From Truepera sp. (GTDB lineage Bacteria > Deinococcota > Deinococci > Deinococcales > Trueperaceae): a stretch of DNA of 64,000 bases. Below, one piece after another: positions 12,614 through 15,764 of this stretch. The stretch lies in the NCBI GenBank assembly GCA_965218435.1, contig CBDCKW010000009.1, positions 2,368,001 through 2,432,000 on the forward strand, written 5' to 3'. The notes beneath the pieces are model-generated. The model searched no databases. It was given only the letters and a program-made list of their open reading frames with translations, and was not told where the DNA came from. The translations under genes and the position numbers were made by a program. How positions within the stretch are numbered: position 1 is the first letter of the stretch; every line of letters begins with the position of its first letter.

Positions 12614-12702
12614 ATCAAAAGTTTACAATGGTGTTCGAAAACAAGACTTTTTAGGTTAGACTGCGGGACATCTGTCAGAAACTTAGGGCGTAAAGTAAAA
12701 TC

Positions 12703-13104
12703 ATGCGCTACGTCATCCTTCTGCTTTTATGTTCGTCTCTAGCTGCCTGCCGCCCGCCGGAGCCTTCAAGTGAAAGTGCGGGGAGTGCTGCGGGCGAAGC
12801 GGGCGTTAAGGTCAGCCTCGAGCTCCCCAAAAAACCTGCGATTGGTCCGGCTCCGGTACGCGTTTACCTGTTAGGTGTAGATAATAAAGCTGTGACCGGC
12901 GCAACCGTTACGGTAACCGGCCTCATGACCCACGCCGGAATGGAACCTGTGATTGCCAAAGCGCCCCCAACTGAAAACGGCCTCTACCAGACCAAAACCT
13001 TTGACTTTGACATGGCGGGCGACTGGATTTTGCAAGCCGACGTGACGCTCCCAGACGGCAACGAAGTGCGTAAAGAGCTGAGCGTGACGGTTCCGGGGGG
13101 CTGA
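12703..13104 (+). CDS. FixH/YtkA-like Ig-fold lipoprotein with Met/His motif
   Basis: Lipobox LAAC; VTGATVTVTGLMTHAGM...GLY...FDMAGDW is the YtkA-like pattern. Confidence 0.8.
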   Translation: MRYVILLLLCSSLAACRPPEPSSESAGSAAGEAGVKVSLELPKKPAIGPAPVRVYLLGVDNKAVTGATVTVTGLMTHAGMEPVIAKAPPTENGLYQTKTFDFDMAGDWILQADVTLPDGNEVRKELSVTVPGG

Positions 13105-13106
13105 GC

Positions 13107-13418
13107 GTGAGTCGGTGGGCGAGGGCTTTAAGAGCGGGCGGTACGACGCTGCTGTTGGGCCTGCTCTGCACCGCCGCACTCGCTGCCCCTGCGCTTAGCA
13201 CGGTTCAAAATTTCGCGCATACGCATTCAGGTAGTACGCCGCACCATGTTCACCCGTTGTGCCTTTTACTCGGCGGGACCCCACCGGCTTCGCCCATTGT
13301 TGCAGCTGGGTCTATAAAACGTGACGACGCTCTCCCGTTTTACGTCATTTCTTTCGTCGCAGCCGAAGTCTTTACGGGTTCACGCAGCCGTGCGCCTCCT
13401 CCAAACGTCGAACCGTAG
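13107..13418 (+). CDS. Small exported His/Cys-rich protein with C-terminal RAPP motif (DUF2946/CruR/CutF-like putative arrest peptide)
   Basis: Signal-like N-terminus, HTHSGSTPHHVHPLC, C-terminal SRSRAPPPNVEP; starts 2 nt after the upstream stop. Confidence 0.7.
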   Translation: MSRWARALRAGGTTLLLGLLCTAALAAPALSTVQNFAHTHSGSTPHHVHPLCLLLGGTPPASPIVAAGSIKRDDALPFYVISFVAAEVFTGSRSRAPPPNVEP

Positions 13419-13439
13419 CCACTAGACGTTTTTTGCGCC

Positions 13440-15038
13440 TTGATTTACGGGGCAGAGTTGGAGGACATCATCACGACTAAGCAAGCTTATCCAGACACAG
13501 CGCCGGACAAAGTAGAGCTGCCGCTGCACCGCCCCAACCGCCCGGTTTGGCCCGCGCAACCTAAGGGTTTTGACCTCTTCCGGCTCCCCGGTCTGCGGCG
13601 GTTTTTTCGCTGGCGTTACGCCCGTTTCGTGTTTCAGTTACCGCTTTTGCTGCTGGCCGTGTTCGCCGTGGTAGACGGCCTCACCGGAGACCAATTAGCG
13701 CCGCGCAACATCGCCACGACGACGCTCTGGTTGCACTACCGGGGCCTGGTCGTGGTCGCACTCGCCGTTTTCGGTAACGCCTTTTGTTCCGCCTGTCCAC
13801 TCATGCTGACGCGGGGGTTGACGAGACAGTTGGAGCGCGTTTTGCCCCATAAGCTCAGCTGGCCCAGGGGCTTAAAAAATAAATATCTGGTTACGGCGCT
13901 GCTGCTCGCTTTCTTTTTATCGTATGAAGTGTTCGACTTTTGGGCCAGCCCGTTTTTAACCGCGTGGCTGGTGATCGGCTACTTTATGGGCGCGCTCGTC
14001 GTTGACACACTTTTTCCCGCCGGGACGTTTTGCCGTTACGTGTGCCCCCTCGGAAACTTCAACTTTACCTTTGCTACGGCCTCACCCACACAAATTGTAG
14101 CCGTCAACCCGGACGTGTGCAGCAGCTGTCACGATAAGCCGTGTTTGCACGGGCGTGAAAGCTACGCAGACGCGTCTCAAACCAAAGGACAAGCAGCGTT
14201 TATTCCGCTGTCACAGATTGAGCACGCGAACGGCTCCGGCTACTTTCCGGGCTGCGAAACCGACCTGATGGTGCCGACGATCACCTCGAACATGGACTGC
14301 ACCTTTTGTCTAAACTGTGTGCGGGCATGCCCGTATGACAACGTGGCGCTTACCACCCGGACGCCGGGGCTCGAGTGGACCCGTAACCCGTGGGCCAAAC
14401 GCGGCGGCTTCGCCGTTATCTTACTGAGCATTCTCCTAACCTTTTGGGGTCTCCTCAACGCCCTTGCGATGATCGGCCCGTTTTACAAGGGTGCAGAAAC
14501 CCTCTCAGCAGCTCTGGGAACGCGGAGTGAGGCGCTGCTACTCGCCGTCATCTTCGGCAGTGTCACCCTGCTCGGGTTCGGTCTGACTACGGCGATGAGT
14601 TTACTCGCTGACCGGTTAGGCGGCACAAAGAGCACGCTCCGACCGGCGCTCATGCGCTGGGGTTATGTCCTCTTGCCCCTCGGCTTCGGCTTTTGGGCGG
14701 CGCACTATCTGTTTCACTTCTCAACCGGGGCGCTCAGCATCGTGCCGGTATTTCAGCACTTTTTTGAGACCTGGGGCTTCGCCGTTGACCCGAATTGGCG
14801 ACTCTCGAGGCTCGTCCCAACCCACTGGCTCTTCCCTATCGAGGCAGGATTTGTCAGTGTCTACTCGCTTTTGGCGGTATGGACAGCGTTTCGGATTGCG
14901 CTCCGCGATTTCGGTCGGCGCGGCGTGCTCGCGCTCTGGCCGCCGCTCCTATTCGTTCTCCTGTTTGCGGCACTGTCACTATGGATACTCGCGCAGCCGA
15001 TGGAGATGCGCGGCACCATTTTCGGCCCGACGTTTTAG
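13440..15038 (+). CDS. Membrane polyferredoxin (4Fe-4S binding; CcoG/FixG/NapH-like); start codon uncertain
   Basis: CSACP, CRYVCP, CSSCHDKPC, CTFCLNCVRACP and many transmembrane segments. Confidence 0.85.
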   Translation: MIYGAELEDIITTKQAYPDTAPDKVELPLHRPNRPVWPAQPKGFDLFRLPGLRRFFRWRYARFVFQLPLLLLAVFAVVDGLTGDQLAPRNIATTTLWLHYRGLVVVALAVFGNAFCSACPLMLTRGLTRQLERVLPHKLSWPRGLKNKYLVTALLLAFFLSYEVFDFWASPFLTAWLVIGYFMGALVVDTLFPAGTFCRYVCPLGNFNFTFATASPTQIVAVNPDVCSSCHDKPCLHGRESYADASQTKGQAAFIPLSQIEHANGSGYFPGCETDLMVPTITSNMDCTFCLNCVRACPYDNVALTTRTPGLEWTRNPWAKRGGFAVILLSILLTFWGLLNALAMIGPFYKGAETLSAALGTRSEALLLAVIFGSVTLLGFGLTTAMSLLADRLGGTKSTLRPALMRWGYVLLPLGFGFWAAHYLFHFSTGALSIVPVFQHFFETWGFAVDPNWRLSRLVPTHWLFPIEAGFVSVYSLLAVWTAFRIALRDFGRRGVLALWPPLLFVLLFAALSLWILAQPMEMRGTIFGPTF

Positions 15039-15065: not shown

Positions 15066-15764
15066 ATGCCTGACATGTTGCGTTTAGGTCTGCTTGCTCT
15101 TCTACTCACTATGTCTCTGCAACTCGTACTGGCACAAACTGAACCGCTCCCCGAATGCGGCTACGAAGACCGTCCTGCTACGCTGACGAGCTACGACGAC
15201 TGGCCGTATACAGTGCTCGACACGCTCTACGCGCTGCCTGAAGATTACGCGCCGAGTGATTTGGAGCCCGTCACCTCGTTGGGCGTCGGCACCGACGCGC
15301 TGCAGCTACGCAGCTTGGTTATGCCCGATTTGAAGGCGCTGTTAGCAGCGGCTGAGGCTGATGGGATGGGGCTCGAGGTTCAGTCTGCGTACCGCTCATA
15401 TGGGTATCAGAAGCAGACGTTTGACTATTGGACAGCACAAGACGGCTACGCCGCCGCCCTAAAGAGCAGCGCCCGCCCCGGTCACTCGGAACATCAGCTC
15501 GGCACCGCGCTTGACTTCCGCAGTGCGGACGGCGACCCCGCATGGGATTTGGATGACTGGGCGACGACACCTGAAGGGGCTTGGCTTCAAGAACACGCCG
15601 CCGAGTTCGGTTTTGTGATGAGTTATCCGAAGGGTAAAGAGGCGCTGACCTGCTACATTTATGAGCCGTGGCATTACCGTTATGTCGGGCGTGAAGAGGC
15701 CGCTGCGGTGGCGGCGAGCGGTCTCACACTGCGCGAATGGTTGTGGGAGCACCAAACACCATGA
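15066..15764 (+). CDS. M15 family D-alanyl-D-alanine carboxypeptidase (VanY-like)
   Basis: SAYRSY, SARPGHSEHQLGTALD, YEPWHYRYVG; signal peptide. Confidence 0.93.
   Translation: MPDMLRLGLLALLLTMSLQLVLAQTEPLPECGYEDRPATLTSYDDWPYTVLDTLYALPEDYAPSDLEPVTSLGVGTDALQLRSLVMPDLKALLAAAEADGMGLEVQSAYRSYGYQKQTFDYWTAQDGYAAALKSSARPGHSEHQLGTALDFRSADGDPAWDLDDWATTPEGAWLQEHAAEFGFVMSYPKGKEALTCYIYEPWHYRYVGREEAAAVAASGLTLREWLWEHQTP

What the first reader, a model, noticed from the sequence alone, without database searches (positions are those of the whole stretch)
12703..15038. Candidate metal (copper)-sensing arrest-peptide operon: YtkA-like lipoprotein, RAPP peptide, CcoG-like polyferredoxin
Seen: a 103-aa ORF (13107-13418) with a signal-like N-terminus, a His/Cys cluster (HTHSGSTPHHVHPLC) and C-terminal RSRAPPP. 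It lies between a lipoprotein with an MTHAGM motif and a membrane protein with two CxxxCP-type motifs and ferredoxin motifs. Known: RAPP/RAGP is the ribosome-stalling motif of ApdA/ApdP/SecM-type arrest peptides. Proteobacterial DUF2946 peptides (CruR, CutF) combine a signal peptide, CxxC and RAPP-like tail to control downstream copper genes, and CcoG is a cupric reductase. Inferred: a Deinococcota version that uses mainly His rather than CxxC as ligand, sits in the middle of the operon, and controls a metal reductase. I do not know of this arrangement having been characterised.
Basis: partly seen in the sequence, partly recalled or inferred. Interest (0 to 1): 0.85.

Follow-up and report, generated by a model that had tools for sequence, protein, structure and literature searches.

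The report
Histidine-swapped copper-sensing stall peptide
A small conserved gene with four fixed histidines and a ribosome-stalling-type ending (Arg-Ala-Pro-Pro) sits in front of copper-handling genes in one bacterial family, and it likely works as a copper-sensing on/off switch for the next gene, a histidine version of a switch already known with cysteines.

Summary
Observation confirmed. The 103-aa ORF is under purifying selection and belongs to a family found in 57 of 127 Trueperaceae genomes and 0 of 236 other Deinococcota. Members share a membrane helix, four fixed His (HxH-x6-HxH), a variable linker of nearly fixed length, and R-x-P-P. The last His lies 46 residues before the Arg, where the first Cys of CxxC lies in Deinococcota DUF2946 peptides. 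47 of 61 loci have CopC, CopD, NosL or MbnP/H genes downstream. Here the Pro codons can pair with the next gene's Shine-Dalgarno; family-wide support for that helix is moderate.

Corrections: Cys52 is not conserved. The ferredoxin is not CcoG but an unnamed NapH-superfamily protein, CtaG-fused elsewhere. It is the first downstream gene in only 7 of 61 loci. The mid-operon position looks like an insertion into a ytkA-ferredoxin pair.

Best reading: a CruR/CutF-like arrest leader that likely opens downstream translation when copper is scarce. Stalling, metal and polarity are untested. This scan noted the family before on other DNA, and a published dataset lists other His-rich RAPP leaders. New variant of a known kind.

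The parts
12691..12696 (+). Candidate -10 box (TAAAGT) ending 6 nt before the ytkA ATG; may give a leaderless transcript
   Evidence: Read from the sequence; the leaderless pattern is recalled. One search scored a neighbouring sigma-70-like site at 12672-12701 (2 sites found, 0.8 expected).
12703..13104 (+). YtkA/CtaK-like lipoprotein (lipobox LAAC, MTHAGM at 12925-12942); upstream of the switch
   Evidence: PF13115 E 6.8e-14, 52.7 bits against cut-off 25.9
13107..13418 (+). His-type RAPP leader peptide, 103 aa, starting 2 nt after the ytkA stop
   Evidence: dN/dS 0.24 against L149
13113..13199 (+). N-terminal signal or anchor helix (residues 3-31); cleavage not determined
   Evidence: AlphaFold helix 3-31, block pLDDT 92-96; hydropathy peak 2.0
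13218..13253 (+). Four-His motif H38-x-H40-x6-H47-x-H49, candidate metal site
   Evidence: H38, H40, H47 in 65 of 65 and H49 in 64 of 65 aligned members
13254..13388 (+). Linker of 45 residues: sequence free, length nearly fixed
   Evidence: Last His to Arg 45-48 residues in 63 of 64; CruR has 45 intervening residues (PMC9426467)
13389..13400 (+). RAPP arrest-type motif, followed by a third Pro
   Evidence: R-x-P-P in 64 of 64 untruncated loci
13398..13404 (+). Anti-Shine-Dalgarno arm CCUCCAA (Pro codons), predicted to pair with 13458-13464
13460..13464 (+). Shine-Dalgarno GGAGG of the ferredoxin gene
   Evidence: Invariant in 6 of 6 aligned loci
13470..15038 (+). Membrane iron-sulfur protein of the NapH/NosR/CcoG superfamily, unnamed family; likely ATC start; CX2CP, CX3CP, CxxCxxCxxxCP plus a second atypical Cys set; all-helical C-terminal half with invariant W-x-x-H-x3-H
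   Evidence: Caa3_CtaG fused in 24 of 24 long homologues tested
15066..15764 (+). VanY-type D,D-carboxypeptidase, a frequent downstream neighbour; role in the module unknown
   Evidence: PF02557 E 1.9e-38; synteny

Best explanation
The 103-aa ORF is a conserved leader peptide with a membrane helix, four fixed histidines, a fixed-length linker and RAPP, and it likely acts as a copper-sensing ribosome-arrest switch of the CruR/CutF kind. Inferred steps: (1) The ribosome would stall with RAP in the P site while the helix engages the translocon and the His motif has just left the exit tunnel. (2) The stalled ribosome would cover the Pro codons and free the Shine-Dalgarno they are predicted to pair with, so the ferredoxin gene is translated when copper is scarce. 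(3) Copper bound by the four His would fold the motif, pull the chain, release the stall and let the helix close. ytkA lies upstream and would escape this control. The controlled protein likely helps supply copper, possibly by reducing it, for heme-copper oxidase assembly. Shown here: the ORF, its conservation, the spacing, the gene context and the possible base pairing. Not shown: stall, metal, compartment, polarity, reductase activity.
For: Family with invariant His and R-x-P-P, also found by a profile without RAPP. 117 of 119 library representatives keep the His motif and 1 has CxxC. H49 is 46 residues before R95, the same distance as the first Cys in 25 of 30 Deinococcota DUF2946 peptides; the 45 intervening residues equal CruR's, where spacing matters experimentally (PMC9426467). 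Near-complementary distribution: His type 57 of 127 Trueperaceae and 0 of 236 others; CxxC type 4 of 127 and 39 of 236. 47 of 61 loci have CopC, CopD, MbnP, MbnH or NosL within 4.5 kb downstream; the genome's second copy heads copC-copD-mbnP-mbnH. RAPP supports arrest in several peptide contexts (PMC12992588). SD unpaired probability 0.00 free and 0.37 under a ribosome footprint. Cognate SD complementarity peaks only at Arg codon +0 to +18 (z -2.9 to -1.8, other 22 offsets within 1.4; 40 dereplicated loci, GC-binned). Polarity: CopC-CopD-YtkA (YcnJ) acts under copper starvation (PMC13344008) and NosL matters under copper limitation (PMC7558416). The genome has 3 COX1 and 3 Caa3_CtaG genes.
Against: No experiment. 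The window fold is no more stable than shuffles (z -0.27), and an alternative helix still partly covers the SD under the footprint. The SD pairs with the RAPP region in only 18 of 59 loci. The six-locus pair count is not significant (47 of 500 shuffles), and Pro-Pro codons complement GGAGG by default. 13 of 64 loci have RDPP or RSPP, whose arrest strength I did not find tested. Profile comparison with CxxC peptides aligns only the RAPP tail (probability 28.6%), so common descent is not shown. Four His could bind Zn, Ni or Co. CutF has the opposite polarity and a PPP like this peptide. The probable ATC start would be weak.
Confidence: 0.55

Rival explanations
1. Same arrest leader, opposite polarity (CutF-like): copper binding stabilises the stall, opens the SD and switches the downstream genes on when copper is present.
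For: CutF stalls at PPP with copper and melts an SD hairpin (10.1101/2025.02.05.636593). This peptide has RAPPP and a predicted SD helix. A reductase or NosL/MbnH set could be made on substrate arrival.
Against: Most downstream genes match uptake and chaperone functions active under limitation. RAPP arrest is intrinsic and EF-P-refractory (PMC12992588 abstract). The third Pro is not conserved.
Confidence: 0.2
2. An arrest leader that senses another metal (Zn, Ni, Co) or several metals, since four-His sites are not copper-specific.
For: The nearest named Atlas cluster is DUF2607 (score 0.94). DUF2607 is ZrgD, first gene of a Zur-regulated zinc-uptake operon (PMC9817125), and is listed as a RAPP uORF. 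One member precedes an ABC binding protein (L133).
Against: 47 of 61 loci have copper-specific families downstream. No ZnuA- or NikA-type family was among the 45 neighbour proteins scanned.
Confidence: 0.12
3. A secretion or insertion monitor (SecM/ApdA-like) released by translocon pulling alone; the His residues serve structure or a separate role of the finished peptide.
For: Signal helix plus RAPP is the ApdA/ApdP architecture. Most downstream products are exported or membrane proteins.
Against: No sec or yidC family among the recurring neighbours. Four invariant His at a fixed distance need an explanation.
Confidence: 0.07
4. A small membrane-anchored metal chaperone with no regulatory role; RAPP is a vestige or slows synthesis only.
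For: It is translationally coupled to ytkA in 26 of 65 loci, and the His loop is modelled with pLDDT about 90.
Against: RAPP is selected against in proteomes yet kept in every untruncated member at a fixed distance, with a disordered linker of free sequence.
Confidence: 0.06

Closest known systems
CruR (Bp2923), Bordetella pertussis, DUF2946/PF11162 (PMC9426467; part 1 of 7 and search passages read)
   Same: Export-type N-terminus, metal-ligand motif 45 residues before a C-terminal RAPP, copper uptake and chaperone genes downstream (CopC, MbnPH, PepSY_TM).
   Different: Four His instead of CxxC. Below the Pfam cut-off. Second rather than first gene here and in 26 of 65 loci. Short 51-nt gap and a predicted SD helix instead of Rho-dependent termination in a 162-nt gap.
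CutF, Rhodobacter capsulatus (10.1101/2025.02.05.636593; abstract and Discussion read)
   Same: Nascent exported peptide, Pro-rich stall, SD-hiding stem-loop opened by the stalled ribosome.
   Different: CutF uses Cys ligands and an EF-P-sensitive PPP, is switched on by copper and controls a detoxifying oxidase.
RAPP arrest peptides ApdA/ApdP and Streptomyces SLIV_16130 and SLIV_18480 (PMC10951233 passages; PMC12992588 sections 8 and 13 and passages)
   Same: Small ORF with localisation signal and RAPP near the end; the two SLIV peptides have conserved His/Cys and metal-related downstream genes, and their arrest is shown.
   Different: Other sequence families. Apd peptides control sec/yidC genes. 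No metal response was reported for the SLIV peptides in the passages read.
His-rich RAPP uORFs in the PMC12992588 source data: DUF2607/ZrgD, and 'HSHP' peptides before TonB receptors (supplement 8, cut when stored)
   Same: Membrane helix, HxH...HxH cluster, linker, RAPP, upstream of uptake genes.
   Different: In two rows counted by eye the last His is 56 residues before Arg, not 45-48. They precede TonB receptors or ZrgA. I saw no discussion of them in the sections read. Homology was not tested.
CcoG cupric reductase and YccM (review PMC7558416, passages); NapH/NosR superfamily
   Same: Membrane protein with Cys-Pro motifs and 4Fe-4S motifs, tied to copper and oxidase assembly genes.
   Different: Fails the CcoG model, has no Ig-like domain but an extra helical membrane half, a CX2CP first motif, and is linked to YtkA and Caa3_CtaG rather than ccoNOQP-GHIS.

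Membership tests
DUF2946 / CruR | CxxC ligand motif | tested here: not met
   Window has H49-x-x-C52; Cys near the cluster in 2 of 65; CxxC in 1 of 119 representatives
DUF2946 / CruR | Score above the PF11162 cut-off | tested here: not met
   20.5 bits against 23.7; 1 of 53 members hits at E 0.1
DUF2946 / CruR | C-terminal RAPP | tested here: met
   R-x-P-P in 64 of 64 untruncated loci
DUF2946 / CruR | Fixed spacing of about 45 residues between ligand motif and RAPP | tested here: met
   45 intervening residues here; last His to Arg 45-48 in 63 of 64
DUF2946 / CruR | Export-type N-terminus | tested here: met
   Basic start plus hydrophobic helix 3-31; cleavage not tested
DUF2946 / CruR | First gene of a copper operon | tested here: inconclusive
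   Copper context met (47 of 61); first position not met here or in 26 of 65 loci
DUF2946 / CruR | Common descent (profile homology outside RAPP) | tested here: inconclusive
   hhalign probability 28.6%, only 26 tail columns
DUF2946 / CruR | Copper-dependent control of downstream expression | not testable with these tools
   Needs reporters
RAPP arrest peptides | Small ORF with localisation signal and RAPP close to the C-terminus | tested here: met
   103 aa; 5 residues follow RAPP; median tail 5
RAPP arrest peptides | Ribosome stall at RAP/P | not testable with these tools
   Needs toeprinting
Apd/SecM secretion monitors | sec or yidC gene downstream | tested here: not met
   None among recurring neighbours
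CcoG | TIGR02745 above cut-off | tested here: not met
   No hit for the window protein; 2 of 60 homologues at E about 6e-4
CcoG | Two CxxxCP motifs (definition recalled) and two 4Fe-4S clusters | tested here: inconclusive
   CX2CP and CX3CP; one canonical CxxCxxCxxxCP and a second invariant but atypical Cys set
CcoG | C-terminal periplasmic Ig-like domain | tested here: not met
   Model residues 313-508 are helices; YccM also lacks it
CcoG | Cu(II) reductase activity | not testable with these tools
   Needs an assay
NapH/MauN | TIGR02163 above cut-off | tested here: not met
   60 of 60 hit weakly; window 42.5 bits against 213: superfamily only
YtkA / CtaK | PF13115 domain, lipobox, conserved His/Met | tested here: met
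   CtaK features from PMC9145763

The most novel reading that the evidence does not exclude
The four-His leader reads a different copper form than the CxxC leaders, plausibly Cu(II) rather than Cu(I). In three relatives of the same genus one operon carries both in series: ytkA, His leader, ferredoxin, CxxC leader, YtkA-like, copC, copD (L148-L150). Such an operon would be a two-step ribosomal copper-redox sensor in which a Cu(II)-reading stall gates a new CtaG-linked family of membrane cupric reductases and a Cu(I)-reading stall gates uptake.
Probability: 0.15. Interest if true: 0.8.

Novelty: new variant of a known kind. Interest (0 to 1): 0.5.

Why it matters
How metal binding to a nascent chain releases or holds a RAPP stall is open: CruR and CutF give opposite polarities and compartments. 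A family that keeps the same ruler length but swaps CxxC for four His is a natural ligand-swap experiment. It allows tests of metal selectivity, oxidation state and the pulling-force model, and the swap can be built into existing CruR reporters. It also points to an uncharacterised membrane iron-sulfur family, paired with YtkA or fused to Caa3_CtaG across four phyla, as a candidate missing copper-supply factor for caa3-type oxidases.

Tried and rejected
CcoG membership: rejected. Conserved Cys ligand: rejected; among 14 closer relatives only 2 keep HPLC. Presence in Chloroflexota: not found in 301 genomes searched, nor in 5 single genomes holding the ferredoxin; these searches had no positive control inside them. 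Structure searches for the ferredoxin gave nothing clear: Foldseek no match at E 0.001, VIA best Z 7.3 on generic helices, PDB sequence search only a weak 4Fe-4S hit; this does not show a new fold. No RNA holder listed, so expression is unchecked. The taxonomy and names of the 119 representatives could not be looked up. The DUF2607 model rang nowhere, controls included, so it is uninformative. The unbinned permutation (z -4.5) was inflated by GC matching; I use the GC-binned result. 21 weak hits of the N-terminal profile (E above 0.005, most lacking the His part) were not fetched. One spurious CxxC match (L209, 51 residues) was dropped. L133 was scored RTPP at 36 residues by the script but has RAPP 9 residues later. 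No paper on this family turned up in searches for RAPP + arrest peptide + copper, DUF2946 (60), DUF2607 (77), arrest peptide/histidine/Truepera (86) or RAPP/uORF/TonB/metal (97). Six family motifs found no member in the held part of the PMC12992588 uORF list; that file is cut, file 10 was not searched and four supplements were unreadable, so members may be listed there. Complex prediction was not used: no protein-protein binding is claimed.
Full report
1. Observation. 12703-13104 is a YtkA-like lipoprotein (PF13115 E 6.8e-14). 13107-13418 starts 2 nt after its stop and encodes a basic start, a helix (model residues 3-31), His at 38, 40, 46, 47 and 49, Cys52, and RAPP at 13389-13400. It hits DUF2946 only below cut-off (20.5 against 23.7 bits). 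The next ORF hits NapH-type models weakly and CcoG not at all.

2. The peptide is a real, conserved gene. A six-sequence profile matched 58 of 364 Deinococcota genomes: the window's own, 57 of 127 others in its family, and 0 of 236 in other families. The family is Trueperaceae by record titles and one source name. Over 1.84 billion representatives it found 119 proteins, 117 with HxH...HxH and 1 with CxxC. To avoid circularity I rebuilt the profile without linker and RAPP. Its 66 hits at E 0.003 or better were all places already found; 21 weaker hits were not fetched. In the 66 fetched loci all have the His pattern, and all 64 not cut by a contig end have R-x-P-P (script count 44 RAPP, 8 RDPP, 6 RGPP, 5 RSPP, 1 RTPP, the last being a RAPP 9 residues later), against 4% in random stretches. 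H38, H40 and H47 are present in 65 of 65 and H49 in 64 of 65; H46 and C52 are not conserved. dN/dS was 0.09-0.45 in the 19 of 20 hand-picked pairs that could be computed, 0.24 for the window; the pairs are related and some are near saturation.

3. The linker is a ruler. Its sequence is free but the last His lies 45-48 residues before the Arg in 63 of 64. CruR has 45 residues between CxxC and RAPP, and adding five spoils regulation (PMC9426467, passages); the window has 45 between H49 and R95. In 30 fetched Deinococcota DUF2946 loci the gap after CxxC is 42 in 25, 41 in 4 and 43 in 1, which puts the first Cys at the position of H49 and the second at that of C52. The CxxC type occurs in 4 of 127 Trueperaceae, all in the window's genus, and in 39 of 236 others. 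So the His type fills the same slot in this family. Descent from DUF2946 is not shown: the profiles align only over the RAPP tail (probability 28.6%).

4. The context is copper. Of 61 loci with at least 1.5 kb downstream, the first gene is a His-rich exported protein in 12, a weakly YtkA-like protein in 9, CopC in 8, CopD in 7, NosL in 7, the ferredoxin in 7 and other in 11; 47 have CopC, CopD, MbnP, MbnH or NosL within 4.5 kb and 21 have the ferredoxin (labels). The genome's second copy (G000:C9:3058760-3059089) heads copC-copD-mbnP-mbnH. ytkA lies just upstream in 26 of 65 loci. Of the 80 ferredoxin loci kept out of 91, 38 have ytkA directly adjacent with no peptide, including 20 of the 28 closest and loci from Chloroflexota and Acidobacteriota, and only 4 have the peptide. 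The simplest reading, inferred without a tree, is that a peptide-headed copper cassette entered an older ytkA-ferredoxin pair and that the cassette genes later moved away in this lineage. Three genus relatives carry a second, CxxC-type leader after the ferredoxin, ahead of copC-copD; the window's genome lacks it.

5. The controlled gene. Invariant Cys form CX2CP, CX3CP, one canonical CxxCxxCxxxCP and a second atypical set; the C-terminal half is helical with invariant W409, H412 and H416. All 60 aligned homologues hit NapH weakly and 2 hit CcoG weakly. All 24 long forms that I tested, mostly Planctomycetota and Acidobacteriota, are fused to Caa3_CtaG; a few other long forms were not tested. 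CtaK (YtkA) and Caa3_CtaG are caa3 oxidase assembly factors, and the CopC-CopD-YtkA fusion YcnJ acts under copper starvation (PMC9145763 and PMC13344008, passages). The genome has 3 COX1 and 3 Caa3_CtaG genes. A role in copper supply to oxidases is therefore likely; reductase activity is an analogy with CcoG (PMC7558416, passages), not a test result.

6. Output of the switch. In the window CCUCCAA (13398-13404) is predicted to pair with UUGGAGG (13458-13464). The SD's unpaired probability is 0.00 free and 0.37 when a stalled-ribosome footprint is blocked. In six aligned loci the SD is invariant and the base 5' of it matches the Pro wobble base as U-A, G-C and A-U in three, but this is not significant (47 of 500 shuffles). 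Across 40 dereplicated loci, with permutation inside GC bins, a locus's own SD region pairs better than foreign ones only at offsets 0 to +18 from the Arg codon (z -2.9, -1.8, -2.0, -2.2; the other 22 offsets within 1.4; best p 0.002 uncorrected), and perfect helices of 9 bp or more occur in 6 of 40 against 1 of 40 in two control windows. Against this, the window's fold is no better than shuffles (z -0.27) and only 18 of 59 loci show the pairing at probability above 0.5 (start sites chosen by a heuristic and by hand, five corrected). SD masking is thus plausible here and in part of the family; other members may use another output. The start aligned with relatives' ATG or GTG is ATC at 13470; a contig in run X1 shows no other letter there, though that run may be the window's own source.

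7. Mechanism. Most likely (0.55): default RAPP stall, SD open, ferredoxin made when copper is scarce; copper binds the four His, the chain is pulled, the stall ends and the SD closes. Rivals: CutF polarity (0.2), another metal (0.12), pure secretion monitor (0.07), non-regulatory chaperone (0.06). That it is some metal-responsive arrest leader thus sums to about 0.87. Whether sensing is cytoplasmic, as proposed for CruR, or periplasmic, as for CutF, is open.

8. Novelty. It works like CruR and CutF but fails DUF2946 membership on CxxC and on score. Copper-linked RAPP leaders are described as widespread, and two Streptomyces ones with conserved His/Cys are shown to arrest (PMC12992588, abstract, sections 8 and 13, passages). 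That paper's source data also list His-rich RAPP uORFs of other families. I found no paper on this family, but several supplements were cut or unreadable. Earlier notes of this scan describe the same family and the SD helix; I saw them after my own tests and they are not independent support. Verdict: new variant of a known kind, interest 0.5.

Noticed in passing
window 13470-13472: The ferredoxin start aligns to ATC where five relatives have ATG or GTG behind the same SD; possibly a real AUC start that dampens expression.
   Followed up: partly
L081:5761-9809 (G000:C9:3058760-3062811): Second His-type leader ahead of copC-copD-mbnP-mbnH, with a 231-nt gap whose two ends are predicted to form a long helix over the SD region.
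   Followed up: yes
L148, L149, L150: Two arrest-type leaders in one operon: His type before the ferredoxin, CxxC type before YtkA-like, copC, copD.
   Followed up: partly
L148, L150, L151, just behind the SD after the leader: The ATG behind the SD opens a very short ORF (6-14 codons) whose stop touches the ferredoxin ATG; a coupling mini-ORF or frameshifts.
   Followed up: no
L037-L076 (24 loci tested): Caa3_CtaG fused to the N-terminus of the same membrane ferredoxin in Planctomycetota and Acidobacteriota.
   Followed up: partly
L131, L132, L134, L135, L137, L142, L146: His-type leaders, mostly with RDPP, head nosL-nosL-nosD-like clusters.
   Followed up: partly
L160:2970-4013; L154:3081-4442: A transposase (L160) and a PLP decarboxylase (L154) lie between the leader and its copper genes, which would uncouple the switch.
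   Followed up: no
L113, L117, L119, L155, L158, L159, L161, L164, L165, L167, L168, L171: A His-rich exported protein family with no clear Pfam match, sometimes fused to CopC or MbnP, is the commonest first gene after the leader.
   Followed up: partly
window 15066-15764: A VanY-type carboxypeptidase follows the ferredoxin in most close loci; no link to copper is apparent.
   Followed up: no
window 12691-12705: TAAAGT ends 6 nt before the ytkA ATG and no SD is evident: candidate leaderless transcript.
   Followed up: no
PMC12992588 supplement 8: 211 occurrences of HSHP and 40 of DUF2607 in the RAPP uORF list; many rows seen are His-rich leaders before TonB receptors or ZrgA, so His-type metal-sensing leaders may be widespread.
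   Followed up: partly
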